Source: a virus (lineage: Duplodnaviria; Heunggongvirae; Uroviricota; Caudoviricetes). Taken from it: a stretch of DNA of 52,416 nucleotides. The notes below the pieces were generated by a model. It saw only the letters and a list, made by a program, of their open reading frames with translations. It ran no database searches and was not told the origin of the DNA. Below, one piece after another: positions 1,422 to 46,792 of the stretch. The stretch is taken from IMG/VR virus record IMGVR_UViG_2896589216_000005; one strand, 5' to 3'. The first letter of the stretch is position 1. Each line of letters begins with the position of its first letter. A program made the translations under genes and the position numbers.

Positions 1422-3896
1422 TTAAAAATCAGCCTGATTCGGGATCAGTTTTTGCCAGATAACTGAAACGTATTTTGCCTGGTAACGGGCGTCATCAAGT
1501 GCATTATGGCGCTCACCTTCGAATGGAATAGCCGTTCTGGCATCGAAGTCTATGGCTTTCCCCAGCTCAACGATTGTGCGTACATCGCGATCGTTGTAGT
1601 AACGCCACGGGCAGGGGATCCCCTGCCGTTCGTATGAACGGCGCAAAATCGTGTTGTCGAAGTTGGCTCCATTTCCCCAGACCTGAACAAAAAATTCACC
1701 GGAGTTTTCGTCGATAAATTCCCGCAATTGTAACAGTGCATCATCTAACGGGATTTCATCGGTCATAATGGCAGATTGCGCTTCGCGTGATTGCTTAAGC
1801 CACCATTTAATGGTGTCCCGATCAATGACCCCGCCAGCAGTTTCCAGATCGATAGTCTTACTAAATTCCGGTCCCATATCTCCGGTTTGCGGATCGAAAA
1901 ATATTGCACCTATTGAGATGATCGGGGCATCAGGATTTTTTCCCATGGTTTCAAGGTCGATCATTAGATGGTCACACGTCCTGCTGGTGGATGTGATTTC
2001 TTGATGACCGTTCACCTTAATTGAGTGATCTGCCGTCTCGCCAGTTTCATTATCGCTATCGTGATGCTGATTGCCGTCAGTGTTCTCCTTGTGTGGATGT
2101 TCAGCGCCTTCCATTTCCTCCGGATCATCTTCCTGAACTTCAACCTGATACTCTTCATCGAATGTTTCCTGGTATGTTGCGTCGCCCATCACCGCGCCAC
2201 AATCAGGGCAGTTGCCGCCGCCGGTCTGACCGCAGGCGGTGCAGACTTTTTCCACTTCCTGTTGCGCCACTGGTTCAGGCTGTTTCGTTTCTGGCTCGTT
2301 TTGTAACGCATTTGGGCTGTTTTGTTCCGCTTTCTGGCCGTTCTGTTCCGTTTCTTGCTGGTTCTGATTCACTGAATCGCGGGTTTCAATCCCCTTCACC
2401 CATTTCGGATCATTCGGGTCGCTAATCCCTGCAACAAATTCACCACGTGATACAGCAAGCAAATTATTGGCGTCAGGCTGGCTGATATTGGCTGCCTGCA
2501 TAATTTTGTTTACTTCGTCAGCGGTAACTTTTACCGGCTCTGGTTGTGCGATCGTGTCAGATGCACCAGTATTTTGTTGTGAACCTGAGTACGTGCCGTT
2601 TTTACGTGCGAAGTATTCCTCTTTTGTGATTTCCGTAGCTCCCAGGGCCAGTGCTTTTTCCAGACCAGAAAGTTTGTTTGCGCGACCGTATTTTTCGCCG
2701 TCCTTATCGGTGAAAAGGAAGTAGAACGGTCCCTCACGCTCTACAGATGGTTCGTCTTCCACTTCGCATTCGGTTTTTTCGTTGTCCGGCATTGCCGTTT
2801 CCACTGCATCAGTTTCTGGTACTGGTGACGGGAGAGTACCAGCTGTGCCCTGATTTGTTCCTTCGTCATCTTCAAACACGCCCTTGGTAGTCAGGTATTC
2901 AGTGATGTATTTGTTCAGTGCTACGGGATCTTTGTGAATGTCGATCGGACGCTCACGGACAAGGCCAAAAATAGTCTGACGGTCGTAGCGAACGGCATCG
3001 GGTTGTTTGCGCATTGATGCGGAAATGCGCTTCCAGTCTTCGCGATCTTTGTCGATAACTTCATTTTTTGCCCAGCGATGGATGCTGCCGTCAATGTTTC
3101 CGGTATCAATATCGCCAGGCCAGAGAGCGTAGGCCAGTTCTTCATCCAGCGTTTTCCATGTCTGCTTGTATTCGCGACAAATGGCGGCAGTGACTGGGTT
3201 GATTTTTCCTGCTGAGTTTTCAGTGTTCTGTTGATTGACTCTGGCGCTGGCGAGATCAACAACAGACGTGTATTTTCCAGTCTCTTTGCGCTCTGCGTCC
3301 TGCCGTTTTTTCCAGTTACGTAATTCAGCCTGAATTTCGGGCCATTTGGCACCCGGATTACATTTGTGTTTAACCCATCCGATAGCGAACAGTTTGCGTT
3401 CCGGATACATAGCGTTAATTTCAGGCGTTTTCATCAGTGCTTCAACGATATGCCCGTCAAAGGTAGCAACGTCTTCCTGCAGTAATTCCTGCGCGTCAAT
3501 CGCCATATCAACGGTGATGTTTTCACATGTACCGAACTTAACCAGGACCGCGTTCTGTACTTCAAGGGACAGCTTGTCAAAATTGACGTTCATCGGATCG
3601 GATTCTGGTTCGACCGGAATAAAGGAAGCGGATTCCTCATCCCAGCGGTTTTCCTGCATATATTCAGCATCCCAGGAATCGAGGGCAGGGCGGGGTATAC
3701 CGGGTTTATCCTCGCAGACAAGAAATTTATAAGCGCAGTCCTGAGCAGCCGGATAATGTTCCAGGAATTGCCAGTGAAATTTTGCGCGGGCGCGACGTTC
3801 ATCACCGGCTTCAATGGCAGTGGCTACAGCGACGGCACCTTCTTCCTTTATTGCCTGTTCGTCCGGAATGGCGGCGCAAATAAAGACTTTACTCAT
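1422..3896 (-). CDS. Large exonuclease-family protein: C-terminal DEDDh (DnaQ-like) 3-5 exonuclease domain, central CxxC...CxxC zinc ribbon, acidic linker
   Basis: 824-aa ORF; C-terminal MIDLETMG...HNALDDARY motifs typical of DnaQ-like exonucleases; occupies the recombination-module position next to xis. Confidence 0.7.
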   Translation of the reverse strand: MSKVFICAAIPDEQAIKEEGAVAVATAIEAGDERRARAKFHWQFLEHYPAAQDCAYKFLVCEDKPGIPRPALDSWDAEYMQENRWDEESASFIPVEPESDPMNVNFDKLSLEVQNAVLVKFGTCENITVDMAIDAQELLQEDVATFDGHIVEALMKTPEINAMYPERKLFAIGWVKHKCNPGAKWPEIQAELRNWKKRQDAERKETGKYTSVVDLASARVNQQNTENSAGKINPVTAAICREYKQTWKTLDEELAYALWPGDIDTGNIDGSIHRWAKNEVIDKDREDWKRISASMRKQPDAVRYDRQTIFGLVRERPIDIHKDPVALNKYITEYLTTKGVFEDDEGTNQGTAGTLPSPVPETDAVETAMPDNEKTECEVEDEPSVEREGPFYFLFTDKDGEKYGRANKLSGLEKALALGATEITKEEYFARKNGTYSGSQQNTGASDTIAQPEPVKVTADEVNKIMQAANISQPDANNLLAVSRGEFVAGISDPNDPKWVKGIETRDSVNQNQQETEQNGQKAEQNSPNALQNEPETKQPEPVAQQEVEKVCTACGQTGGGNCPDCGAVMGDATYQETFDEEYQVEVQEDDPEEMEGAEHPHKENTDGNQHHDSDNETGETADHSIKVNGHQEITSTSRTCDHLMIDLETMGKNPDAPIISIGAIFFDPQTGDMGPEFSKTIDLETAGGVIDRDTIKWWLKQSREAQSAIMTDEIPLDDALLQLREFIDENSGEFFVQVWGNGANFDNTILRRSYERQGIPCPWRYYNDRDVRTIVELGKAIDFDARTAIPFEGERHNALDDARYQAKYVSVIWQKLIPNQADF

Positions 3897-5368: not shown

Positions 5369-5673
5369 ATTGATAACAGAGGGCGTTGCAGCGGGGTTGT
5401 CACTTAAGCGTATGGTCAACCTGACAACCCGGTGTCCTCAGCGGGGGAAGGAATAACCCCGCCATACTTACCGCCGCGCCATTTCGCGGATTGCCACAAC
5501 CGGAAGCGCACGATCGAATTAAATTTAACGACGACCTATACAGAGAGACTAACTTCTCCGGGCGCTTTCGTGTTATGCCCTGACTTTTCAGGGATATATC
5601 CTTTTCAGTAAACTGTCAGTGCCGGATTCTTATCCGTGTCCGGCGCACGCACTCTACCTCACCTGTGAATAAA

Positions 5674-6060
5674 TTAATGATTAATTGATATTTTGTTGTT
5701 TGATTCAACTTTCCCATCGGATGTGTGATGCTTTAAATCACAGGAATTAATACTGCTTGCTGTAAAATGATTTTCAAGGGGTTCTATTCGAATCCCTTTC
5801 TTTTTCATTAACAAGCCAAACCCCTTATCAATGATGTCCATTAGATCCAGGAAGTATTTTTCATGTAAATCCTGGTTATCAGAGAGCTGCTTCTCTTCGT
5901 ACAGCCCGATAAAGGCTCGGCGTACGTTACCGGATATATTGTCGATGGTTTCTTTTTCTACGGTACTCAGGTCAAGAGTCGCCAGTTGAGAGCGAACCAC
6001 ATTCGATGCCATTTCCTGGAATGGTACTGGTAAATCTTTAAATTCCATCGTCAACCTCAT
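5674..6060 (-). CDS. Hypothetical protein in the dicB operon (128 aa)
   Basis: ORF whose start overlaps the upstream gene stop (ATGA at 6060); lies between the ydfA-like gene and dicF. Confidence 0.5.
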   Translation of the reverse strand: MRLTMEFKDLPVPFQEMASNVVRSQLATLDLSTVEKETIDNISGNVRRAFIGLYEEKQLSDNQDLHEKYFLDLMDIIDKGFGLLMKKKGIRIEPLENHFTASSINSCDLKHHTSDGKVESNNKISINH

Positions 6061-6317
6061 CAGTCGGAGTTTCTTGCTAACCAGCGACGCGCGCCAGCTT
6101 CGGTTTTAAACGTTTTGCTTTTGGTATACGTCATGGCGGTGAATGTGCCGTCCTGGTTGGGGAGCACACCACATACCAGAGATTCGCTGTTGCCAAGATC
6201 GATAGTATCCATGCTGACCTCATTACCCCTTAACGCCGGGTAGCGGAACTGTTTGCTGAGAACACCGTGCGGTGTCTTGATGGGTGGTAATTTAGTTTTC
6301 TCATGAATGTTGGTCAA
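6060..6317 (-). CDS. ydfA: YdfA-like small protein (first gene of dicB operon); true start may be the internal ATG at 6212 (50 aa)
   Basis: ORF track start is TTG at 6317 with no SD; internal Met (MDTIDLG...) has a GAGG SD and gives a 50-aa product of YdfA size. Confidence 0.55.
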   Translation of the reverse strand: MTNIHEKTKLPPIKTPHGVLSKQFRYPALRGNEVSMDTIDLGNSESLVCGVLPNQDGTFTAMTYTKSKTFKTEAGARRWLARNSD

Positions 6318-6326
6318 GCATTTTTA

Positions 6327-6340
6327 ATGAGAAAACTCAA
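6327..6340. promoter_or_regulatory. Operator-like palindrome ATGAGAAAACTCAA upstream of the dicB operon
   Basis: Near-perfect inverted repeat TGAG-AAAA-CTCA; second copy at 6860-6873; the pair flanks the repressor gene. Confidence 0.4.
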
Positions 6341-6401
6341 CATTTAATGCAAAATAAAGCCAATACATTGAAATGTAAGGCTTTAAAATTTGTGAAGGGG
6401 G

Positions 6402-6809
6402 TTACTGATGTTTGTTACGTTTGCGAGCTTCTAGTAGCTCGGTGAATAGGCGATTAAAATTCTCAACGCGGGCACGGAGTTCGCTGATTTGTGCTTGCTG
6501 CTCTGATTTTGGAAGTGCGCGATACAATCGCAACATCTCCAACTCATCTTCCGATAAGTCTAAGGCGCTGTTGAGTGCTACTGGTGGATCTGGTGTTTTA
6601 TCCTCGTCACCAAACAGTATCCAAGTTGGTGAACATTGCAATACCTCAGCCAGGCGATGCAAATTTTGCCCGCGCGGGGCTGTATGGTCGCTTTCCCATA
6701 GTGAAATTGATGAGCCAGATACGCCAGCGGCTTTGCTTAAATCGTTTTGACTTAAACCAACCTGTTTGCGTCTTTCTCTAATTCGTTGACCTAAAGTTTT
6801 CTCGTTCAT
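6402..6809 (-). CDS. dicA: DicA-like HTH repressor (XRE family), 135 aa
   Basis: N-terminal HTH (QRIRERRKQVGLSQNDLSKAAGVS) and LQCSPTWILFGDEDK segment match DicA; divergent from a Cro-like gene. Confidence 0.85.
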   Translation of the reverse strand: MNEKTLGQRIRERRKQVGLSQNDLSKAAGVSGSSISLWESDHTAPRGQNLHRLAEVLQCSPTWILFGDEDKTPDPPVALNSALDLSEDELEMLRLYRALPKSEQQAQISELRARVENFNRLFTELLEARKRNKHQ

Positions 6810-6859
6810 ATTTAGATATCTTAATAACCCTTGACTCGAGATTCCTTGAATGATTGCTA

Positions 6860-6873
6860 TTGAGAAAACTCAA
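6860..6873. promoter_or_regulatory. Operator-like palindrome TTGAGAAAACTCAA in the dicA/dicC divergent promoter region
   Basis: Perfect inverted repeat TTGAG-AAAA-CTCAA, 13 nt upstream of the dicC-like start and next to its SD. Confidence 0.45.
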
Positions 6874-6886
6874 CTTTGGAGGGGTG

Positions 6887-7114
6887 ATGTTTAAATCAGA
6901 CGTAATTAATTTTTATGGGACGAAAGCCAAAGTAGCGAAAGCTGCTGGTGTTGATCCATCTGCTGTTTCTCAATGGGGGGAACTGGTTCCTGAAGGTCGC
7001 GCGATGCGCCTGCAAGAGGCATCCGGCGGGGAACTTCAGTACGACCCCAAAGTTTATGACGAATATCGTAAGGCAAAGCGGGCGGGGCGGTTGAACAATG
7101 AAAATCACCCCTGA
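6887..7114 (+). CDS. dicC: DicC-like Cro-type regulator (75 aa)
   Basis: ATG at 6887 preceded by GGAGGGG SD; VPEGRAMRLQEASGGELQYDPKVY matches DicC/YdaS-type Cro proteins. Confidence 0.78.
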   Translation: MFKSDVINFYGTKAKVAKAAGVDPSAVSQWGELVPEGRAMRLQEASGGELQYDPKVYDEYRKAKRAGRLNNENHP

Positions 7115-9130: not shown

Positions 9131-9919
9131 TTGTCGGAGGAAATTTTAATGGAAACCGTATTTGACGCACTGAAAGCAATGGGAAAAGCCACATCGGTAG
9201 AACTGGCCGCGCGACTTGATATCAGTCGTGAAGAGGTTCTCAACGAGCTGTGGGAACTCAAAAGAAATGGCGTCGTTGATAAAACTGGTCACACCTGGTT
9301 TCTGGCTGGCGAAGGTGAATCCCGGGTAACCGAAGAGCGGCCAGTAAAATCTGAAGCACAGGATATGCTGACCGGGGAGGTCGAACAAAAAGTTACCGCA
9401 GACATGATGATTGAGTTTATCGGTCAGGATGGTGCTAAAACGTGTGAGGAACTGGCGGGTAAGTTCGGCGTCAGTACTCGCAAGGTTGCCTCCACGCTGG
9501 CGGTGGTAACCGCAACGGGGCGGCTGGCACGCGTTAATCAGAACGGTAAATTTCGTTACTGCATGCCGGGCGATAATTTACCAGCAGAGCCGAAAGCCGC
9601 GCTGGTAACGGAAAGTGATGGTAAGGCCTTTCCTCAGCCAGCAGGTGCTGCGTTACCAGTCCGGGAAGCCGCAACACAGGAAGAAATTAAAACAGAAACT
9701 GTGGCGGACATTGTGCAGCCGTTGCCATCGTTTACCGAAACGCAAGCAGATGAGCTGATTTTTCCGTCCCTTCGCAGGGCAAACCTGGCGCTGCGCAGGG
9801 CGAAAAGTGATGTTCAGAAGTGGGAGCGAGTCTGCGCCGCGCTGCGGGAGCTGAACAAGCACCGGGATATTGTTCGACAGATTACTGATTCTTCCCGCCG
9901 TGTTGTATCGGAAAAGTGA
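9131..9919 (+). CDS. Hypothetical phage protein with N-terminal winged-helix (DUF1627-like), 262 aa
   Basis: ORF; N-terminal wHTH-like segment ([28 protein letters not shown]). Confidence 0.55.
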
Positions 9920-10327
9920 TTGCCGGAGGCGCTTATGGCAAAAGTATTTACACCAGAAGAGCGGGAAGAAGTGAAGGCGCGCATTGTGGAATTCGTGCGC
10001 CTGAGCGGACGAGAAACTTTTCGACAACTGGCAGATAAAACGGGTGTCAGTAAGACCGCTATTCGTCGTTTATCTGGTGCGCTTGCGGCCAGTGGTGATG
10101 TCTGGCTCTCTGGTTGCGGGGTATTTCCATCAGAGCAGGCGTATCGCGTATGGCGTAAGACACCGGAGAAGGCTGCTGACCCGACACTGATTCGAAAGTT
10201 ACCTGACGGAGAAATACGTCGTTACAACAGACGGCAGAACATAATTTGTCGTGAGTGCCGCCAGAGCGAAGTTATGCAGCGTGTGCTGGCGTTCTATCGG
10301 GGAAACTTTCAGGAGGTGATGGAGTGA
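9920..10327 (+). CDS. Hypothetical phage protein, 135 aa
   Basis: ORF tightly packed in the early operon. Confidence 0.5.
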   Translation: MPEALMAKVFTPEEREEVKARIVEFVRLSGRETFRQLADKTGVSKTAIRRLSGALAASGDVWLSGCGVFPSEQAYRVWRKTPEKAADPTLIRKLPDGEIRRYNRRQNIICRECRQSEVMQRVLAFYRGNFQEVME

Positions 10328-10620
10328 GGGTCAGAGTTTATATTGCCGGTCCAATGACGGGATATGAAAATTTCAACCGTGAGGCGTTTCACAAGGCGGA
10401 AGAGGAACTGAAACGGGAAGGGCATACCGTCTTAAACCCGGCAGTACTTCCGGACGGGCTGACACAGCCGCACTACATGGATATTTGCATGGCAATGATT
10501 CGTTGTGTGGATGCGATTTACATGCTGAATGGCTGGCAGCGGTCAGCGGGCGCTAAGGCAGAGCTGGCACTGGCGGAGAAACTGGGGCATGCAGTGATTT
10601 ATCAGGAGGTGGCTCAATGA
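10324..10620 (+). CDS. DUF4406 / nucleoside 2-deoxyribosyltransferase-like small protein (98 aa)
   Basis: GTG start overlapping the upstream stop, AGGAGG SD; VYIAGPMTG...N-terminal motif typical of the deoxyribosyltransferase-like fold. Confidence 0.55.
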   Translation: MRVRVYIAGPMTGYENFNREAFHKAEEELKREGHTVLNPAVLPDGLTQPHYMDICMAMIRCVDAIYMLNGWQRSAGAKAELALAEKLGHAVIYQEVAQ

Positions 10621-11078
10621 GAGAGGTTAACTATGAGGCGCTTCGTGAGGCAGCACAAAACTATCAGTCGACGCTGGCGTGGTATCAGGCTATCCCGGAC
10701 AGCCCAAATGCTGAACGGGATTGTGATGCGGCTCTTGCTGCGTTTAAGCGTCACATCCGTCATCGGGAAGCGGATATTATCGCTGATTTGCTGGATGGAC
10801 TGGAAGAAGCAAAATCACAACTCAAAGAGCAGCGTGAGTATTACGAAGGCGTTATCTCTGATGGGAGCAAGCGTATTGCTGAACTGGAAGCGCGGGAAGT
10901 TCAATTACCGACTCGCTACGACCTTCGATATGGACACCCGATAAATGCAGATGAGCGACATGTCATGATACCTAAAGAAAATGGCAGTTGGCTTTACCTG
11001 ATTGACCTAGAACACGCATTACGCGTCGCTGGCATTCGCATCAAAGGAGAGGAGCATGGAAATAAAACCAGAGGATGA
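10617..11078 (+). CDS. Hypothetical phage protein, 153 aa
   Basis: ORF with start overlapping the upstream stop. Confidence 0.5.
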   Translation: MREVNYEALREAAQNYQSTLAWYQAIPDSPNAERDCDAALAAFKRHIRHREADIIADLLDGLEEAKSQLKEQREYYEGVISDGSKRIAELEAREVQLPTRYDLRYGHPINADERHVMIPKENGSWLYLIDLEHALRVAGIRIKGEEHGNKTRG

Positions 11079-11412
11079 GTTAAGCAATATCGTTTTATTT
11101 CCGGTAAAAGAGGATGACCCTCGTAATCAGGTTAATTTTCTTTATGAGCCATCGGAAAGACCATATTGTCATCACGCCTCTGTTCGGGTTGACGAAAAAG
11201 AGCGTCAGGTCCGCTGTAAAATCTGCGGTGCAGTTGTGGAGCCATTTGACTGGATGCTCTCTGTGGCGAAAAGAGAAACCAGACTGGCAGATGATGTAAG
11301 GCTATTGCGCCAGGAGGAACAGGAAAGGCGGAAAAATATAGAAAAGTTAATTCAGATTGAGCGTAACGCGAAAGCGCGGATATGCAGGGCGACAAAATCC
11401 AGAACTGAATAA
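11056..11412 (+). CDS. Hypothetical protein with CxxC zinc-ribbon motif, 118 aa
   Basis: ORF; CKICGAVVEP motif. Confidence 0.45.
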   Translation: MEIKPEDELSNIVLFPVKEDDPRNQVNFLYEPSERPYCHHASVRVDEKERQVRCKICGAVVEPFDWMLSVAKRETRLADDVRLLRQEEQERRKNIEKLIQIERNAKARICRATKSRTE

Positions 11413-26741: not shown

Positions 26742-27209
26742 ATGAACCGCGTACTGTGCGTGGTCATCATTGCCCTGCTGGTGGCCTGTGGTGCGCTTAG
26801 TCTGGGGCTGAATCATTACCGTGATAACGCCATAACCTACAAAGAGCAGCGCGATAAAAAAGTCAGTGAGCTGGAGCAGGCAAATGCAACCATTACTGAT
26901 ATGCAGCAGCGCCAGCGTGATGTTGCTGCACTTGATGCCAGATACTCGAGGGAATTAGCCGATGCGAGAGCTGAAAATGAAACTCTGCGCGCTGACGTTG
27001 CCGCTGGTCGTAAGCGCCTGCGGATCAACGCCACCTGCCCCGGTACCGTGCGTGAAGCCCCCACCACCTCCGGCGTGGATAATGCAACCGGCCCCCGACT
27101 GGCAGACACCGCTGAACGGGATTATTTCACTCTCAGAGAGCGGTTGATGCTGATGCAGAAGCAGCTGGAAGTGGCGCAGGAATATATCCGCACTCAGTGC
27201 CTGAAATAA
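26742..27209 (+). CDS. Rz: Rz i-spanin
   Basis: 155-aa ORF with N-terminal TM segment and coiled-coil; follows the endolysin. Confidence 0.85.
   Translation: MNRVLCVVIIALLVACGALSLGLNHYRDNAITYKEQRDKKVSELEQANATITDMQQRQRDVAALDARYSRELADARAENETLRADVAAGRKRLRINATCPGTVREAPTTSGVDNATGPRLADTAERDYFTLRERLMLMQKQLEVAQEYIRTQCLK
26962..27147 (+). CDS. Rz1: Rz1 o-spanin lipoprotein embedded in the +1 frame of Rz
   Basis: Signal peptide with lipobox VVSAC and proline-rich mature part; entirely inside Rz. Confidence 0.7.
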   Translation: MRELKMKLCALTLPLVVSACGSTPPAPVPCVKPPPPPAWIMQPAPDWQTPLNGIISLSESG

Positions 27210-38062: not shown

Positions 38063-40525
38063 TCTTGTTATTGACCTGAGTCTGGATGCTGTCCGTTTCG
38101 ATGAGCAGATGAGCCGGGTAAGGCGTCATTTTTCATGTCTGGATACCGACGCCAGAAAAACCGCCAGTGCTGTTGAACAGGGCCTGAGCCGCCAGGCGCT
38201 GGCTGCACAAAAAGCCGGGATTTCCGTCGGGCAGTATAAAGCGGCCATGCGAACCCTGCCCGCACAGTTTACGGATATCGCCACGCAGCTTGCAGGTGGT
38301 CAGAATCCCTGGCTGATCCTGCTGCAACAGGGCGGTCAGGTGAAGGACTCCTTCGGCGGGATGATCCCCATGTTCAGGGGGCTTGCCGGTGCGATCACCC
38401 TGCCGATGGTCGGGGTCACCTCGCTGGCGGTGGCGACAGGTGCGCTGGTGTACGCCTGGTACCAGGGAGATTCCACGCTTTCAGCGTTTAATAAAACCCT
38501 GGTTCTTTCCGGTAATCAGTCCGGACTGACTGCCGATCGTATGCTGACTCTCTCAAGAGCCGGGCAGGCAGCAGGGCTGACGTTTAACCAGGCGAGAGAG
38601 TCACTGGCAGCCCTGGTGAATGCCGGTGTGCGTGGTGGTGAACAGTTTGATGCCATCAACCAGAGTGTCGCGCGTTTTGCGTCTGCATCCGGTGTGGAGG
38701 TGGATAAAGTCGCTGAAGCCTTCGGGAAGCTGACCACTGACCCGACGTCGGGACTGATGGCGATGGCGCGCCAGTTCCGTAACGTGACGGCAGAGCAGAT
38801 TGCGTATGTTGCACAGCTGCAGCGTTCCGGAGACGAGGCCGGGGCATTGCAGGCGGCGAACGATATCGCCACGAAAGGCTTTGATGAGCAGACCCGTCGC
38901 CTGAAAGAAAACATGGGAACACTGGAGACCTGGGCGGATAAAACAGGGAAGGCATTCAAATCGATGTGGGATGCCATTCTGGATATCGGTCGTCCTGAAT
39001 CCTCAGCGGATATGCTCGCCAGTGCGCAGAAGGCATTTGATGAGGCGGATAAAAAATGGCAGTGGTACCAGAGCCGGAGCCAGCGCCGGGGAAAGACCTC
39101 CTCTTTTCGTGCGAACCTTCAGGGGGCATGGGATGACCGGGAAAATGCCCGTCTGGGTCTGGCAGCGGCCACGCTGCAGTCGGATATGGAAAAAGCCGGT
39201 GAACTGGCGGCAAGGGACCGGGCTGAGCGTGAGGCGTCACAGCTGAAGTATACCGGAGAGGCGCAGAAGGCGTATGAGCGCCTGCAGACGCCGCTGGATA
39301 AATATACCGCCCGTCAGAAAGAGCTGAATAAGGCCCTGAAAGACGGAAAAATCCTGCAGGCGGATTACAACACGCTGATGGCGTCGGCAAAAAAGGATTA
39401 TGAATCGACGCTGAAAAAGCCGTCAGGTGTGAAGGTGTCTGCCGGTGAGCGCCAGGAAGACCGGGCGCATGCAGCCATGCTGGCGCTTGAAACCGAGCTC
39501 AGGACGCTGGAAAAACACAGCGGTGTGAATGAGAAAATCAGCCAGCAGCGCCGGGATTTATGGGAAGCGGAAAATCAGTATGTGGTCCTGAAAGAGGCCG
39601 CCACGAAACGGCAGTTATCTGAGCAGGAAAAATCCCTGCTGGCCCATGAGAAAGAAACGCTGGAGTACAAACGCCAGCTGGCTGAGCTGGGCGACAAGAT
39701 TGAACACCAGAAACGGCTGAATGAGCTGGCACAGCAGGCGGCGCGGTTTGAACAGCAGCAGAGCGCGAAGCAGGCGGCAATCAGCGCAAAAGCACGCGGA
39801 CTCACCGACCGTCAGGCGCAGCGGGAGTCGGAAGAGCAGCGCCTTCGTGAGGTGTACGGTGATAATCCGGCTGGGGCGAGTGGGCGGAAAGTGCGACGGA
39901 CAGTTTTTCGCAGGTTAAAAACGCGGCCACGCAGACCTTTGACGGTATTGTACAGAATATGGCAGCGATGCTGACCGGCAGCGAACAGAACTGGCGTGGT
40001 TTCACCCGTTCTGTGCTGTCCATGCTGACAGAGATTTTTCTGAAGCAGGCGATGGTGGGGATAGTCGGGAGTATCGGCAGCGCCATTGGCGGGGCTGTTG
40101 GTGGCGGCGCATCCGCGTCAGGCGGTACAGCCATTCAGGCTGCGGCGGCGAACTTCCATTTCGCGACCGGGGGATTTACGGGGACGGGGGGTAAATATGA
40201 ACCTGCGGGGATTGTTCATCGCGGGGAGTTTGTCTTCACGAAGGAGGCGACCAGCCGGATTGGCGTGGGAAATCTTTACCGGCTGATGCGCGGCTATGCC
40301 ACCGGCGGTTATGTCGGTGGCACCGGAAGTCCGGCGCAAATGCGGCGTTCAGAGGGTATCAGATTTGAGCAGAACAACAACGTGGTGATTCAGAACGACG
40401 GTACGAATGGTCTGCCAGGTCCACAGATGCTGAAGGCAGTGTATGACATGGCCCGCAAGGGTGCCCGTGATGAAATTCAGGCACAGATGCGCGATGGTGG
40501 TCTGTTCTCCGGAGGTGGACGATGA
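38043..40525 (+). pseudogene. H: Tape measure protein H, frameshifted (1-bp deletion in G-run at about 39874)
   Basis: Lambda gpH homology moves from ORF 38043-39974 to the frame of ORF 39959-40525 near CTGGGGCGAG. Confidence 0.85.
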
Positions 40526-41553: not shown

Positions 41554-42297
41554 ATGACAGAGACAGAATCAGCGATTCTGGCGCACGCCCGGCGATGTGC
41601 GCCAGCGGAGTCGTGCGGCTTCGTGGTGAGAGCGCCGGAGGGGGAAAGATATTTTCCCTGCGTGAATATTTCCGGTGAGCCGGAGGATTATTTCCGGATG
41701 GCTCCGGAGGACTGGCTGCAGGCAGAGATGCAGGGTGAGATTGTGGCACTGGTCCACAGTCATCCCGGTGGTCTGCCCTGGCTGAGTGAGGCTGACCGGC
41801 GGCTGCAGGTGCAGAGTGATTTGCCGTGGTGGCTGGTCTGCTGGGGGGCGATTCACAAGTTCCGCTGTGTGCCGCATCTCACCGGGCGGCGCTTTGAGCA
41901 CGGGGTGACGGACTGTTACACGCTGTTCCGGGATGCTTATCATCTGGCGGGGATTGAGATGCCGGATTTTCATCGCGGGGATGACTGGTGGCGTCACGGT
42001 CAGAATCTCTATCTGGATAATCTGGAGGCCACAGGGCTGTATCAGGTGCCGTTGTCAGCGGCGCAGCCGGGCGATGTGCTGCTGTGCTGTTTTGGTTCAT
42101 CGGTGCCGAATCATGCCGCCATTTACTGTGGTGACGGCGAGCTGCTGCACCATATTCCTGAACAACTGAGCAAACGAGAGAGGTACACCGACAAATGGCA
42201 GCGACGCACACACTCCCTCTGGCGTCACCAGGCATGGCACGCATCTGCCTTTACGGGGATTTACAACGATTTGGTCGCCGCATCGACCTTCGTGTGA
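41554..42297 (+). CDS. K: Tail assembly protein K (JAB/MPN + NlpC/P60)
   Basis: ATG at 41554 (MTETESAILAHARRCAP); HSHP motif. Confidence 0.9.
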   Translation: MTETESAILAHARRCAPAESCGFVVRAPEGERYFPCVNISGEPEDYFRMAPEDWLQAEMQGEIVALVHSHPGGLPWLSEADRRLQVQSDLPWWLVCWGAIHKFRCVPHLTGRRFEHGVTDCYTLFRDAYHLAGIEMPDFHRGDDWWRHGQNLYLDNLEATGLYQVPLSAAQPGDVLLCCFGSSVPNHAAIYCGDGELLHHIPEQLSKRERYTDKWQRRTHSLWRHQAWHASAFTGIYNDLVAASTFV

Positions 42298-42836
42298 AAA
42301 CGGGGGCCGAAGCCATCCGGGCGCTGGCCACACAGCTCCCGGCGTTTCGCCAGAAACTGAATGAGGGCTGGTATCAGGTGCGCATTGCCGGGCGTGATGC
42401 AGGCGAAAACGAATTATCTGCCCGTCTTAATGAGCCGCTGGCAAATGGTGCCGTGATCCACATCGTACCGCGTCTGGTGGGAGCTAAAAGTGGCGGTGTG
42501 TTTCAGGCGGTGCTGGGGGCAGCTGTTATGGCGGTTGCTATATGGATGCCGGGGGTAGGAATTATGGCGAGTAATCTGCTGTTTTCTCTCGGTGCCAGTA
42601 TGACGCTTGGCGGTGTTGCACAGATGCTGGCACCGAAAGCCAGAACTCCCCGTACACAGACAACGGATAACGGCAAACAGAACACCTGTTTCTCATCACT
42701 GGATAACATGGTTGCCCAGGGCAATGTCCTGCCTGTTCTGTACGGTGAAATGCGCGTGGGGTCACGTGTGGCATCTCAGGAGATCAGCACGGCAGATGAA
42801 GGGGATGGTGGTCAGGTTGTGGTAATTGGGCGGTAA
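42195..42836 (+). CDS. I: Tail assembly protein I
   Basis: Matches lambda gpI; overlaps the K 3-prime end as in lambda. Confidence 0.85.
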   Translation: MAATHTLPLASPGMARICLYGDLQRFGRRIDLRVKTGAEAIRALATQLPAFRQKLNEGWYQVRIAGRDAGENELSARLNEPLANGAVIHIVPRLVGAKSGGVFQAVLGAAVMAVAIWMPGVGIMASNLLFSLGASMTLGGVAQMLAPKARTPRTQTTDNGKQNTCFSSLDNMVAQGNVLPVLYGEMRVGSRVASQEISTADEGDGGQVVVIGR

Positions 42837-42908
42837 TATTATTTACTCATGTTCTAACTGATTTAATATTTATATCGAACACTGATAATTATTCTATTGG
42901 TTAGCTAT

Positions 42909-43205
42909 ATGAACAAAACGATTTTATTCTGCACGATTATTGCCTTAACAGGATGTAAATCTTTGGATTACGTAAAATCCGGAAAACCTGTAATGGAAGG
43001 TAATTCATTAAAAAATATTGATGAATTGTCAGGCTGCATATCCAGACAATGGGCTGGTAATGGAACACCTATAACATCCCTTCCTATTGAGAATGGGGTA
43101 AGCCTTTTAGTTCCACAGGCTATGGGGGATATGATATTGTGCTTGATATCAAAAAAGCAGGAAATGGCAGTAGTTTTACTCTTTATGAACGTGTACCAGC
43201 ATTAA
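42909..43205 (+). CDS. Lipoprotein moron between tail genes I and J (possible Cor-like exclusion protein)
   Basis: Signal peptide MNKTILFCTIIALTGC with lipobox; AT-rich flanks; own terminator hairpin downstream; lambda has no gene here. Confidence 0.6.
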   Translation: MNKTILFCTIIALTGCKSLDYVKSGKPVMEGNSLKNIDELSGCISRQWAGNGTPITSLPIENGVSLLVPQAMGDMILCLISKKQEMAVVLLFMNVYQH

Positions 43206-43269
43206 CGCCAAAAATTTTTGCTGATAGTGTTAATGCATGTAAATAATAGTTAATCCTGCCGTAACTCAT

Positions 43270-43299
43270 GAGCCGCCTTTTGGGCGGCTTTGTTGTTTA
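43270..43299 (+). terminator. Hairpin plus T-run after the lipoprotein moron
   Basis: AGCCGCC-TTTTG-GGCGGCT followed by TTGTTGTTT. Confidence 0.4.
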
Positions 43300-43312
43300 T
43301 GGAGTGTGAGGA

Positions 43313-46300
43313 ATGGGTAAAGGAAGCAGTAAGGGGCATACCCCGCGCGAAGCGAAGGACAACCTGAAATCCACGCAATTACTGAGTGTGATCGATGCCA
43401 TCAGCGAAGGGCCGATTGAAGGTCCGGTGGATGGATTAAAAAGCGTGCTGCTGAACAGTACACCGGTGCTGGACAGTGAGGGGAATACCAACATCTCCGG
43501 TGTTACGGTGGTGTTCCGGGCAGGTGAGCAGGAGCAGACACCGCCGGAGGGATTTGAATCCTCCGGTTCCGAGACGGTGCTGGGTACGGAAGTGAAATAC
43601 GACACGCCGATCACCCGGACCATCACGTCTGCAAACATCGACCGTCTGCGCTTTACCTTCGGTGTGCAGGCACTGGTGGAAACCACCTCAAAGGGTGACA
43701 GGAATCCGTCGGAAGTCCGCCTGCTGGTTCAGATACAACGTAACGGTGGCTGGGTGACGGAAAAAGACATCACCATTAAGGGCAAAACCACCTCGCAGTA
43801 TCTGGCCTCGGTGGTGGTGGGTAACCTGCCGCCGCGCCCGTTTAATATCCGGATGCGCAGGATGACGCCGGACAGCACCACAGACCAGCTGCAGAACAAA
43901 ACGCTCTGGTCGTCATACACTGAAATCATCGATGTGAAACAGTGCTACCCGAACACGGCACTGGTCGGCGTGCAGGTGGACTCGGAACAGTTCGGCAGCC
44001 AGCAGGTGAGCCGTAATTATCATCTTCGCGGGCGCATTCTGCAGGTGCCATCGAACTATAACCCGCAGACGCGGCAATACAGCGGTATCTGGGACGGGAC
44101 GTTTAAACCGGCATACAGCAACAACATGGCATGGTGTCTGTGGGATATGCTGACCCACCCGCGCTACGGCATGGGGAAACGTCTTGGTGCGGCGGATGTG
44201 GACAAATGGGCGCTGTATGTCATCGGCCAGTATTGCGATCAGTCAGTGCCGGATGGCTTTGGTGGCACGGAGCCGCGCATCACCTGTAACGCTTACCTGA
44301 CCACACAGCGTAAGGCGTGGGATGTGCTCAGTGATTTCTGTTCGGCGATGCGCTATATGCCGGTATGGAACGGGCAGACGCTGACGTTCGTGCAGGACCG
44401 ACCGTCGGATAAGGTGTGGACCTATAACCGCAGTAATGTGGTGATGCCGGATGATGGCGCGCCGTTCCGCTACAGCTTCAGCGCCCTGAAGGACCGCCAT
44501 AATGCCGTTGAGGTGAACTGGATTGACCCGGATAACGGCTGGGAGACGGCGACAGAGCTTGTTGAAGATACGCAGGCCATTGCCCGTTACGGTCGTAACG
44601 TCACGAAGATGGATGCCTTTGGCTGTACCAGCCGGGGGCAGGCACACCGCGCCGGGCTGTGGCTGATTAAAACGGAGCTGCTGGAAACGCAGACCGTGGA
44701 CTTCAGCGTGGGTGCAGAAGGGCTTCGCCATGTACCGGGCGATGTCATTGAAATCTGTGATGATGACTATGCGGGTATCAGCATCGGCGGGCGCGTGCTG
44801 GCGGTGAACAGCCAGACGCGGACACTGACGCTCGACCGTGAAATCACGCTGCCATCCTCCGGCACCACGCTGATAAGCCTGGTTGACGGACAGGGGAATC
44901 CGGTCAGCGTGGAGGTCCAGTCCGTCACCGACGGCGTGAAGGTGAAAGTGAGCCGTGTTCCTGACGGCGTTGCCGAATACAGCGTGTGGGGGCTGAAGCT
45001 GCCGACGCTGCGCCAGCGCCTGTTCCGCTGCGTGAGTATCCGTGAGAACGATGACGGCACGTATGCCATCACCGCCGTGCAGCATGTACCGGAAAAAGAA
45101 GCCATCGTGGATAACGGGGCGCACTTTGACGGCGACCAGAGCGGCACGGTGAATGGTGTCACGCCGCCAGCGGTGCAGCACCTGACTGCCGAAGTCACCG
45201 CAGACAGCGGGGAGTATCAGGTACTGGCCCGCTGGGACACGCCGAAGGTGGTGAAGGGCGTGAGCTTCCTGCTTCGCCTGACCGTGACAGCGGACGATGG
45301 CAGTGAGCGGCTGGTCAGCACGGCCCGGACGACGGAAACCACATACCGCTTCAGGCAGCTGGCGCTGGGGCGTTACATGTTGACGGTCCGGGCGGTAAAT
45401 GCGTGGGGACAGCAGGGCGATCCGGCGTCGGTATCGTTCCGGATTGCCGCACCGGCAGCGCCGTCGCGGATTGAGCTGACGCCGGGCTATTTTCAGATAA
45501 CCGCCACGCCGCATCTTGCCGTTTATGACCCGACGGTACAGTTTGAGTTCTGGTTTTCGGAAAAGCGGATTACCGATATCAGGAAGGTTGAAACCACAGC
45601 GCGCTATCTTGGCACGGGGCTGTACTGGATAGCCGCCAGTATCAATATCAAACCGGGCCATGATTATTATTTTTACGTTCGCAGTGTGAACACCGTTGGC
45701 AAATCGGCATTCGTGGAGGCTGTTGGTCAGCCGAGTGATGATGCATCCGGTTATCTGGATTTTTTCAAAGGCGAGATAGGGAAAACCCATCTGGCTCAGG
45801 AGCTGTGGACGCAGATTGATAAAGGTCAGCTTGCGCCTGACCTGGCTGAAATCAGGACGTCCATTACGGATGTCAGCAATGAAATCACGCAGACTGTCAA
45901 TAAGAAACTGAAAGACCAGAGTGCGGCAATCCAGCAGATACAGAAGGTTCAGGTTGATACAAATAATAATCTGAACAGCATGTGGGCTGTGAAGCTGCAA
46001 CAGATGAAGGACGGACGCCTTTATATTGCGGGTATCGGTGCCGGTATTGAGAATACGCCAGCAGGAATGCAGAGTCAGGTGCTGCTGGCGGCAGACAGGA
46101 TTGCGATGATTAATCCTGCGAATGGCAACACAAAGCCGATGTTTGTTGGTCAGGGCGATCAGATATTCATGAACGACGTGTTCCTGAAACGCCTGACGGC
46201 TCCCACCATTACCAGCGGCGGTGATCCTCCGGCATTTTCCCTGACACCGGACGGGCGGCTGACGGCGAAAAATGCCGATATTAGCGGTAACGTGAATGCG

Positions 46301-46792
46301 AACTCCGGGACGCTCAACAACGTCACGATTAACGAGAACTGTCGGGTTCTGGGAAAACTGTCCGCCAACCAGATTGAAGGCGATCTCGTTAAAACAGTGG
46401 GCAAAGCTTTCCCCCGGGACTCCCGTGCACCGGAGCGGTGGCCATCAGGGACCATTACCGTCAGGGTTTATGACGATCAGCCGTTTGACCGGCAAATTGT
46501 TATTCCGGCGGTGGCATTCAGTGGCGCTAAGCATGAGAGAGAGCATACTGATATTTACTCCTCATGCCGTCTGATAGTGCGGAAAAACGGTGCTGAAATT
46601 TATAACCGTACCGCGCTGGATAATACGCTGATTTACAGTGGCGTTATTGATATGCCTGCCGGTCACGGTCACATGACACTGGAGTTTTCGGTGTCAGCAT
46701 GGCTGGTAAATAACTGGTATCCCACAGCAAGTATCAGCGATTTGCTGGTTGTGGTGATGAAGAAAGCCACTACAGGCATCACGATTAGCTGA
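43313..46792 (+). CDS. J: Central tail fiber / host specificity protein J
   Basis: 1159-aa ORF collinear with lambda gpJ. Confidence 0.95.

What the first reader, a model, noticed from the sequence alone, without database searches (positions are those of the whole stretch)
42837..43300. Self-contained lipoprotein cassette inserted between tail genes I and J
Lambda has no gene between I and J. Here a 98-aa ORF with a classical lipoprotein signal peptide (lipobox LTGC) sits in an AT-rich island with its own downstream hairpin terminator. Small lipoproteins carried in lambdoid tail regions (Cor-type) block superinfection by inactivating an outer-membrane receptor. The Cor assignment is by position and architecture only.
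Basis: inference. Interest (0 to 1): 0.6.

Follow-up and report, generated by a model that had tools for sequence, protein, structure and literature searches.

The report
Frameshifted phage lipoprotein gene, not Cor
Between tail genes I and J sits an inserted, AT-rich gene for a small outer-membrane lipoprotein from a widespread, uncharacterised phage family unrelated to Cor, and in this window a one-base deletion has broken it.

Summary
The ORF, its lipobox (LTGC, Cys16), the AT-rich island (GC 0.355 against about 0.58 in the flanks) and the hairpin are all present. Three details need correcting.

1. The 98-aa ORF is a -1 frameshifted remnant of a conserved 112-aa gene. The window has G5 at 43124-43128 where relatives have G6. 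The gene occurs in 337 of 5426 complete E. coli genomes. The exact 98-aa product is on record only from Shigella dysenteriae.
2. The hairpin is not the cassette's own. Lambda and cassette-free prophages carry a homologous hairpin in their 60-nt I-J spacer.
3. No convincing promoter was found.

The protein is not Cor. It has no Pfam or PADLOC hit and is a full-length match to phrog_914 ("unknown function"). Similarity to Cor and to T5 Llp stops at the signal peptide, and phage Fraca carries both a homolog and a separate Cor.

The family has about 125 clusters, all around 112 aa, with three invariant cysteines and pN/pS of 0.11. It occupies several accessory slots in lambda-like tail clusters, most often immediately upstream of gene I, in hosts from Pseudomonas to Klebsiella. 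The same lipoprotein occurs with at least four different J receptor-binding ends.

My best reading, by analogy only, is an envelope-level phage-entry blocker that is inactive here.

The parts
42195..42836 (+). Tail assembly gene I (upstream neighbour)
   Evidence: ORF. tblastn with the I protein of the GZ04-0086 prophage gives 93% identity over residues 1-200. Annotated as 'tail assembly protein' in relatives.
42837..43264 (+). Inserted AT-rich cassette, boundaries approximate. It replaces the left part of the ancestral 60-nt I-J spacer.
   Evidence: Alignment with the empty sites of lambda (DE3) and strain WR3-3. GC 0.355 against about 0.58 in the flanks. 337 E. coli genomes have the 877-nt filled junction, while most have the 460-nt empty one.
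42909..42956 (+). Lipoprotein signal peptide (codons 1-15) and the lipidated Cys16; lipobox L-T-G-C
   Evidence: Translation. Cys16 is invariant in 52 diverse homologs. The +2 residue is Lys here and is never Asp in the homologs read.
42909..43205 (+). 98-aa ORF as it stands: codons 1-72 are authentic and are followed by 26 out-of-frame codons
   Evidence: The exact product is on record as WP_134800674.1 from Shigella dysenteriae, on 3 contigs.
43124..43128 (+). G5 run: the site of the -1 frameshift (G6 in intact alleles)
   Evidence: Alignment with E. coli 214-4 and GZ04-0086. Among fetched loci 37 have G6 and 2 have G5. Only 2 of 337 complete E. coli genomes match without the extra base.
43124..43246 (+). 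Displaced 3' part of the ancestral gene (residues 73-112, including the invariant Cys111) with its original stop TAA at 43244-43246
   Evidence: Frame translation. tblastn of the intact protein matches residues 73-112 at 43124-43243 in a different frame.
43270..43300 (+). GC-rich hairpin plus T-rich tail (terminator-like), homologous to the I-J spacer hairpin of lambda
   Evidence: 9 pairs, 6 of them G-C, loop of 3. The stem forms in both the MFE and centroid structures of the 73-nt context. One search shows the same element at empty sites.
43301..43315 (+). GGAG Shine-Dalgarno sequence and ATG of J, within the conserved TTTATGGAG motif
   Evidence: Read directly from the sequence. Conserved at empty sites, and the motif also follows the Fraca cassette.
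43313..46792 (+). Tail tip / host-specificity gene J (downstream neighbour). Its C-terminal ~160 aa differ from lambda J.

Best explanation
Shown:
- The island is an accessory ('moron'-like) insertion in the late tail operon of a lambda-like prophage.
- Its ancestral gene encodes a 112-aa prolipoprotein of an uncharacterised phage-borne family (phrog_914).
- In this window a -1 slip in a G run truncates the protein after residue 72. It loses two strands, the C-terminal helix and the invariant Cys111.
- The surrounding prophage also has broken portal, protease and tape-measure genes and a shortened V gene. The window probably comes from Shigella dysenteriae.

Inferred from sequence rules and the structure model:
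- The protein is cleaved by signal peptidase II and lipidated at Cys16.
- Because residue +2 is never Asp, the Lol system sends it to the inner leaflet of the outer membrane.
- The mature protein of about 97 aa is a compact alpha-beta-alpha domain. Cys43 and Cys111 probably form a disulfide.

Inferred by analogy only:
- The intact protein blocks entry of incoming siphophages at the cell envelope, either in the lysogen or in the infected cell.
- The blocked step is not tied to the J receptor-binding domain. It could be a step after adsorption, for example passage of the ejected tail-tip proteins or DNA through the periplasm.
- During lytic growth the gene would be read as part of the Q-antiterminated late operon. 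Any prophage-state transcript would stop at the hairpin before J.
- The copy in this window is most likely non-functional.
For: Insertion and composition.
Frameshift.
Real gene under purifying selection.
Lipoprotein features: an invariant lipobox Cys, two further invariant Cys, and no Asp at +2.
Accessory-gene behaviour: related copies sit in three tail-cluster slots, T|H, K|I and I|J. Each has lower GC than its flanks, and those in tail-cluster slots are followed by a hairpin and a T run. More distant homologs sit next to an integrase and in a region with a P2-type replication gene.
Precedent: unrelated small lipoproteins encoded in siphophage tail clusters exclude phages. Lpp021 and Lpp010 were tested experimentally (PMC11893012). 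Cor and T5 Llp are cited from general knowledge. The authors of PMC4936722 proposed a Cor-like role for a lipoprotein between K and I in a Pseudomonas phage.
Independence from J type.
Against: No experiment on any family member was found. There is no PADLOC hit. No clear promoter was found, so expression from the prophage is not shown. The E. coli allele has a weak Shine-Dalgarno sequence (read). Some homologs are chromosomal and not in phages (Shimwellia next to ecotin; Dyella), so the ancestral function need not concern phages. The fold is a common one and gives no specific functional clue. The conserved position next to gene I could point to a role in the lytic cycle rather than exclusion.
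Confidence: 0.42

Rival explanations
1. Cor-type exclusion protein: a member or close analogue of Cor that inactivates FhuA, or whatever receptor the phage's own J uses.
For: It is a small outer-membrane-type lipoprotein encoded next to the host-specificity gene. Cor, Llp and Lpp021/Lpp010 set the precedent (PMC11893012).
Against: It matches phrog_914, not the Cor family phrog_1119. hhalign against Cor aligns only the signal peptide. T5 Llp (8a60) also matches only in the signal peptide. Fraca has both this family and a Cor. No Cor homolog is present in the window. Copies at least 97% identical occur with four or more different J C-termini, and Klebsiella prophages with giant J proteins also carry the family. 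The window's J type mostly lacks the cassette.
Confidence: 0.07
2. Lysogenic-conversion factor that benefits the host rather than blocking phages, for example serum or complement resistance, envelope stress tolerance or adhesion. Bor and Lom of lambda and the virulence lipoprotein Flpp3 are the models.
For: It has the look of an accessory insertion with foreign GC. It is common in clinical E. coli, including UTI89, NU14 and O104:H4. The closest fold is the Francisella virulence lipoprotein Flpp3. Chromosomal non-phage homologs exist. A Lom gene lies just downstream of J in the same prophage.
Against: No promoter was found for expression in the prophage state. The tight conserved position next to tail gene I across distant phages is not expected for a host-fitness gene. 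Similarity to Flpp3 is only 6-9% identity on a common fold.
Confidence: 0.2
3. Late-expressed lytic-cycle helper linked to the tail-tip protein gpI. For example, it could stop progeny virions from ejecting DNA into debris of the lysed cell, or condition the envelope at lysis.
For: The gene lies inside the late operon on the same strand and has no clear promoter of its own. In four diverged clades it sits immediately upstream of I, even where the space between K and the lipoprotein gene varies from about 0.65 to 3.2 kb. A Pseudomonas satellite phage keeps an I gene next to a lipoprotein gene that its authors relate to the helper phage's tail-cluster lipoprotein (PMC4936722).
Against: Most lambda-like prophages, and lambda itself, lack the gene, so it is dispensable. 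It also occurs away from I, at T|H, next to an integrase and on chromosomes. An exported lipoprotein cannot meet gpI in the cytoplasm of the producing cell.
Confidence: 0.15
4. The frameshift is a sequencing or assembly error in a homopolymer, and the gene is intact in the organism.
For: The shift lies in a G run. The portal frameshift (G5 to G4 at 31541) and the indels in the protease gene (32496, 33310) are also in or next to G runs.
Against: The identical 98-aa product is recorded from 3 Shigella dysenteriae contigs, one of them a 4.8-Mb chromosome. The same prophage also has changes that cannot be homopolymer errors: a 138-nt deletion in V and a deletion of about 90 nt with a frame change in the tape-measure gene. 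Shigella genomes are known for pseudogene accumulation (general knowledge).
Confidence: 0.12

Closest known systems
Cor superinfection-exclusion lipoproteins of phi80, N15, HK022 and T1 (phrog_1119)
   Same: A small lipoprotein with a lipobox, encoded in the tail region of siphophages near the host-specificity gene. It is an accessory gene that many relatives lack.
   Different: No similarity beyond the signal peptide. It is 112 aa against about 77 aa. It lies upstream of J or I rather than downstream of J. It coexists with a true Cor in phage Fraca. It does not track the J receptor-binding type.
T5 Llp ('lytic conversion lipoprotein', PDB 8A60)
   Same: An outer-membrane lipoprotein encoded next to the receptor-binding protein gene. 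It is a possible model for blocking a receptor from the periplasmic side and for protecting progeny (general knowledge).
   Different: Only the signal peptide matches by sequence. Llp is not among the structural neighbours in the PDB.
Lpp021 and Lpp010 of mEpimmI coliphages (PMC11893012)
   Same: Lipoproteins encoded within the structural or tail gene cluster. They have been shown experimentally to exclude phages; Lpp010 excludes lambda.
   Different: Lpp021 is 72 aa, lies on the opposite strand downstream of J, and has an unrelated sequence. Lpp010 was not compared here.
Lambda accessory 'moron' genes bor and lom (the moron concept of Hendrix and colleagues)
   Same: Extra genes set within or beside late genes, with atypical composition and a flanking terminator. 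Related phages lack them.
   Different: A different protein family. Here a promoter of its own is not evident, and the terminator-like hairpin is also present at the empty site.
Flpp3 (DUF3568) of Francisella and the N-terminal domain of BamC
   Different: Only 6-10% sequence identity and no Pfam match. The fold is shared with many unrelated proteins (KA1, DUF302, the Bet v 1 type), so this resemblance is not evidence of homology.
Lipoprotein AH14a_p83 of Pseudomonas phage AH14a (PMC4936722)
   Same: A lipoprotein gene between tail assembly genes K and I, in the same slot as the Klebsiella, Fraca and Pseudomonas-like members of this family. A phiAH14a protein is the best viral structural match (25% identity, TM 0.83). 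The authors also guessed a Cor-like role.
   Different: It is listed as 140 aa and comes from a distant host. Its function is equally untested. Whether the structural match is p83 itself was not checked.

Membership tests
Cor family (phrog_1119) | Significant profile match to the Cor family over the mature protein | tested here: not met
   The PHROG scan returns only phrog_914, whereas Fraca Cor returns phrog_1119. hhalign of the family profile against Cor aligns residues 1-32 only, which is the signal peptide.
Cor family (phrog_1119) | Size of about 70-80 aa and a position downstream of J or the tail fibre genes | tested here: not met
   112 aa when intact, and located between I and J. In Fraca, Cor lies downstream of J while the homolog of this protein lies upstream of I.
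Cor family (phrog_1119) | Excludes FhuA-dependent phages when expressed | not testable with these tools
   Needs plating assays with the intact allele.
Bacterial lipoprotein (signal peptidase II substrate) | A positively charged n-region, a hydrophobic h-region and a lipobox [LVI][ASTVI][GAS]C within about 25 residues of the N-terminus | tested here: met
   MNKTILFCTIIALTG|C. The Cys is invariant in 52 homologs. Six homologs also touch Pfam LPAM_1 weakly. No dedicated predictor was available.
Outer-membrane (Lol-sorted) lipoprotein | No Asp at position +2 after the lipidated Cys | tested here: met
   The +2 residue is K here and is K, A, S, T, G, E, V or L in the homologs read. Localisation itself was not tested.
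phrog_914 | Full-length significant HMM match | tested here: met
   E 7.3e-33, residues 1-112 on profile positions 1-118 of 118. The Fraca homolog scores E 2.8e-25.
Moron (accessory insertion in a phage operon) | Present between two genes that are adjacent in related phages | tested here: met
   Empty sites in lambda and WR3-3 have a 60-nt spacer, against 476 nt here. Of the 4297 E. coli genomes with this junction, 337 carry the cassette.
Moron (accessory insertion in a phage operon) | Nucleotide composition different from the neighbours | tested here: met
   GC 0.355 against 0.576 and 0.590. Copies in other slots also have lower GC than their flanks.
Moron (accessory insertion in a phage operon) | Own promoter upstream | tested here: inconclusive
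   No consensus match on the + strand. The best lenient matches are 8/12, or 9/12 with a 15-nt spacer. No transcript data are available.
Moron (accessory insertion in a phage operon) | Own terminator downstream | tested here: inconclusive
   The hairpin and T run are present, but a homologous hairpin exists at cassette-free junctions. Copies in the other tail-cluster slots also end with a hairpin and T run.
T5 Llp | Sequence or fold similarity of the mature protein | tested here: not met
Known anti-phage defence proteins (PADLOC-DB 2.0) | HMM match | tested here: not met
   No families matched for this protein or for two homologs.

The most novel reading that the evidence does not exclude
phrog_914 could be a new family of phage lipoproteins that works together with the tail-tip protein gpI. 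Anchored under the outer membrane, it would intercept the hydrophobic gpI and tape-measure proteins ejected by an incoming lambda-like phage. DNA entry would be blocked after adsorption, whichever receptor J uses. This would explain three observations: the gene sits immediately next to I in phages from Pseudomonas to E. coli; a satellite phage keeps an I gene next to a related lipoprotein gene; and the same lipoprotein occurs with many J types.
Probability: 0.12. Interest if true: 0.7.

Novelty: new variant of a known kind. Interest (0 to 1): 0.4.

Why it matters
Small lipoproteins encoded beside phage host-range genes (Cor, Llp, Lpp021/Lpp010) are the classic way a resident phage closes the door on competitors. 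They matter when predicting phage host range and when choosing therapeutic phages.

This family is unrelated to those in sequence and does not resemble T5 Llp in fold. It is present in about 6% of complete E. coli genomes and in Klebsiella, Enterobacter, Kluyvera and Pseudomonas-type prophages, and it has no assigned function. If it does block phage entry, it would add a widespread resistance determinant that does not depend on the receptor. It would also offer a handle on the poorly understood post-adsorption steps involving gpI.

For this particular window the practical message is more modest. The gene is a pseudogene inside a decaying prophage, and it should not be annotated as Cor.

Tried and rejected
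- Megablast of the island against 50,697 phage records found no match. tblastn found only two distant hits, Fraca and LMessi.
- Pfam gave nothing for the protein or for 52 homologs beyond lipobox noise. NCBIfam gave only a sub-threshold VirB7 signal-peptide hit. PADLOC gave nothing.
- The PDB sequence search gave only signal-peptide matches.
- Rfam found only a chance GcvB hit (E 0.44, 16.9 bits against a threshold of 42), so the island is not a known RNA gene.
- Foldseek against afdb50 was unavailable.
- The search for related loci with broad alignments failed for lack of conserved stretches. The P0041 scan found nothing. The genome-contig scan gave one locus.
- A literature search for WP_001332187 found nothing.
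- mEp021 Lpp021 was considered as a possible homolog. It was rejected because it is 72 aa, unrelated in sequence, and has no tblastn hit in the window.
- The JGI label 'YceK' on a few distant homologs was not accepted, because no Pfam match supports it.
- The 10-bp inverted repeat and the 8-bp direct repeat at the cassette edges are recorded but not interpreted. Matches of that length are near chance expectation in 721 AT-rich bases, and they are not seen around copies in other slots.
- A spanin (Rz1-like) role was rejected because the window has its own Rz/Rz1 pair at 26742-27209.

Full report
**What is in the sequence**

Gene I ends at 42836 and J starts at 43313. Between them lie 476 bases with GC 0.355, against 0.576 upstream and 0.590 downstream. 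An ATG ORF at 42909-43205 encodes 98 aa beginning MNKTILFCTIIALTGC. That start has a basic n-region, a hydrophobic core and a lipobox L-T-G-C with Cys16. A 9-bp GC-rich hairpin at 43270-43290 is followed by a T-rich tail.

**The ORF is frameshifted**

- The island matches 337 of 5426 complete E. coli genomes at 95-99.6% identity, but their copy is 477 nt long, not 476.
- The alignment places the missing base in a G run. The window has G5 at 43124-43128 where E. coli 214-4 has G6.
- The intact gene is 112 aa and is annotated as hypothetical protein WP_001332187.1.
- Its last 40 codons are still readable in the window, in another frame, up to TAA at 43244-43246.
- Only 2 of the 337 E. coli genomes match without the extra base. 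Among fetched viral loci, 37 have G6 and 2 have G5.
- The exact 98-aa product is on record as WP_134800674.1 from Shigella dysenteriae, on three contigs that include a 4.8-Mb chromosome. The window is therefore probably from that species, and the frameshift is probably real.
- The same prophage has further damage compared with its closest intact relative, GZ04-0086. There are frame changes in the portal gene (G5 to G4 at 31541), the S49 protease gene (32499 and about 33305) and the tape-measure gene (residues 611-638 lost, with a frame change near 39870). Gene V also lacks about 46 codons at its start.
- The truncation removes strands 4 and 5, the C-terminal helix and the invariant Cys111 of the modelled fold. 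This copy is most likely inactive.

**How self-contained the cassette is**

I aligned the window with cassette-free junctions from lambda (the DE3 prophage) and from strain WR3-3. Their 60-nt I-J spacer already contains a homologous hairpin, AAACCGCC-TGC-GGGCGGTT followed by TTGTC(G/A)TTTATGGAG, immediately before J. The insertion lies between the stop codon of I and this hairpin, at roughly 42837-43264.

The hairpin therefore belongs to the junction and is not unique to the cassette. The TTTATGGAG motif carries the Shine-Dalgarno sequence of J. About 4300 E. coli genomes have this junction, and most show the empty 460-nt span.

Copies of the gene in other tail-cluster slots are also followed by a hairpin and a T run. 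A terminator after the gene is thus a regular feature, whatever its origin.

No good sigma-70 promoter lies in the 72 nt upstream. The best lenient matches score 8/12, or 9/12 with a 15-nt spacer. The Shine-Dalgarno sequence of the E. coli/Shigella allele is weak. Expression in the prophage state is therefore not established.

**Family identity**

- Pfam, NCBIfam and PADLOC give nothing meaningful.
- PHROGs gives a full-length match to phrog_914, annotated 'unknown function' (E 7e-33).
- Cor belongs to a different family, phrog_1119.
- Profile comparison of this family with a Cor protein aligns only the signal peptide. The same is true for T5 Llp, PDB 8A60.
- Phage Fraca carries a 31%-identical homolog upstream of I and a separate Cor downstream of J.
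- The window contains no Cor homolog. Its only other convincing lipoprotein gene is Rz1.

The Cor assignment therefore fails as family membership.

**The family itself**

- A profile search of 1.8 billion representative proteins finds 125 clusters. Nearly all are 105-125 aa.
- In 52 diverse members the only invariant residues are Cys16 (lipobox), Cys43 and Cys111. This suggests one disulfide in an exported protein.
- The residue after the lipidated Cys is never Asp in the members read. By the usual sorting rule that predicts outer-membrane localisation.
- Among 13 intact E. coli alleles pN/pS is 0.11, so the gene is under purifying selection.
- The AlphaFold model is confident (pLDDT 83.5, pTM 0.74). 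It shows a helix, a five-stranded sheet and a C-terminal helix.
- The best viral match is an uncharacterised protein of Pseudomonas phage phiAH14a.

**Genomic behaviour**

| Slot | Where seen |
|---|---|
| K-I-lipoprotein-J | E. coli / Shigella |
| K-lipoprotein-I-J | Klebsiella, Kluyvera, Fraca |
| K-(variable insert)-lipoprotein-I | 17 viral contigs of the P0067 clade, plus L088 |
| K-lipoprotein-I | L111 (P0031 clade) |
| T-lipoprotein-tape measure | Another Enterobacter-type clade (L070, L073-L075) |
| Next to an integrase | Distant member P0037 |
| Region with a P2-type replication gene | Distant member P0078 |
| Ordinary chromosomal context | Shimwellia (next to ecotin), Dyella |

In the P0067 clade the stretch between K and the lipoprotein gene varies from about 0.65 to 3.2 kb.

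A published description of Pseudomonas phage AH14a noted a lipoprotein gene between K and I and guessed a Cor-like role. Its satellite AH14b keeps an I gene next to a lipoprotein gene that the authors relate to the helper's tail-cluster lipoprotein (PMC4936722).

In short, this is a mobile accessory gene that favours the tail-tip part of lambda-like phages and usually lies immediately beside I.

**Test of the receptor-matching idea**

The window's J differs from lambda J in its last ~160 residues. That C-terminal type is the commonest in E. coli, at 7482 places in 3386 genomes. The cassette is found at only about 349 places.

Conversely, viral contigs whose lipoprotein is at least 97% identical carry at least four unrelated J C-termini. 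Klebsiella prophages with the family have J proteins of more than 3100 aa. A blocker tuned to the phage's own receptor, as Cor is to FhuA, would be expected to co-vary with the receptor-binding end of J. This one does not.

**Mechanism**

Shown:
- an inserted accessory gene for an exported lipoprotein from an uncharacterised family;
- inactivation by a frameshift in this window.

Inferred from sequence rules:
- lipidation at Cys16, an outer-membrane anchor, one disulfide, and a compact alpha/beta domain facing the periplasm.

Inferred by analogy:
- The analogues are Cor, Llp and the experimentally tested Lpp021 and Lpp010 of mEpimmI phages (PMC11893012).
- The intact protein most likely interferes with entry of incoming siphophages at the envelope, at a step not tied to the J receptor-binding domain.

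I put this at about 0.4. The rivals are a host-benefit conversion factor in the style of Bor or Lom (0.2), a late-expressed helper linked to gpI (0.15) and a true Cor-type function (0.07).

**Novelty and interest**

The gene is already in the databases as a hypothetical protein and as phrog_914. A distant relative has been remarked on in print. No function is known. It is best described as a new variant of a known kind: a lipoprotein moron in a tail cluster, with its own sequence family, fold and a conserved position next to I. Interest is moderate, and lower for this window in particular because the copy is a pseudogene in a decaying prophage.

Noticed in passing
window 30286-31877, 31867-33369, 36539-37177, 38043-40525: The structural module of this prophage is damaged compared with the near-identical GZ04-0086 prophage. 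The portal gene is frameshifted at a G run (31541, G5 to G4). The S49 protease gene has two frame changes (about 32499 and 33305). Gene V lacks about 46 codons at its start. The tape-measure gene has lost residues 611-638 and changes frame near 39870. The prophage looks cryptic.
   Followed up: partly
window, whole: The exact 98-aa frameshift product is on record only as WP_134800674.1 from Shigella dysenteriae, on 3 contigs. No complete E. coli genome matches the island at 100%. The window is probably from S. dysenteriae.
   Followed up: partly
window 42837-42846 / 43239-43248 and 42826-42833 / 43280-43287: A perfect 10-bp inverted repeat (TATTATTTAC / GTAAATAATA) sits exactly at the left edge of the insertion and at the original stop codon. 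An 8-bp direct repeat, TTGGGCGG, lies at the end of I and in the 3' arm of the hairpin. Both are near chance expectation, but their placement is striking. They may be traces of the recombination that inserted the cassette.
   Followed up: no
L081/L082 (lambda DE3) 2431-2490; L080 501-560: The 60-nt I-J spacer of lambda itself contains a GC-rich hairpin followed by a T run, just before the ribosome-binding site of J. This is a terminator-like element inside the late operon with no gene attached. The stem differs from the window's by paired changes (AACCGCC/GGCGGTT against GAGCCGCC/GGCGGCT).
   Followed up: partly
L094-L109 (IMG/VR contigs), between about 2650-3350 and 4001: In Pseudomonas-type lambda-like phages the stretch between K and the lipoprotein gene varies from about 0.65 to 3.2 kb, while the lipoprotein gene always abuts I. 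The K|I junction appears to be a hotspot for cargo genes.
   Followed up: no
L002 (phage Fraca) 5725-5994: An 89-aa ORF with no family match sits directly upstream of the Fraca lipoprotein gene, in the same K|I insertion.
   Followed up: no
L091/L092 5001-5339 and 2701-3039; L093 5001-5339: Homologs at 23-38% identity occur in ordinary chromosomal contexts with no phage genes. In Shimwellia blattae the gene lies between a YidB-like gene and ecotin. In Dyella it lies between ppnN and gspH/uvrB. The phage genes may derive from a cellular lipoprotein of unknown function.
   Followed up: no
window 45700-46792 (J residues ~800-1159): J is 93-100% identical to lambda J over its first ~800 residues, per 100-residue block. 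Identity then drops to 36% (residues 801-900), 50% (1001-1100) and 32% (after 1100), which indicates a different receptor-binding end. This end is the commonest J type in E. coli prophages, including those of O157:H7.
   Followed up: partly
window 26742-27209 and 26977-27147: The window has a typical Rz gene with an embedded Rz1 lipoprotein gene (MKLCALTLPLVVSAC..., proline-rich). This is the only other convincing lipoprotein gene in the window. No Bor or Cor homolog was seen.
   Followed up: no
L054 (IMG/VR contig): One viral contig shows three K-I pairs within 14 kb, at about 585-1855, 5651-6891 and 9917-11190. This suggests a tandem or misassembled prophage region.
   Followed up: no
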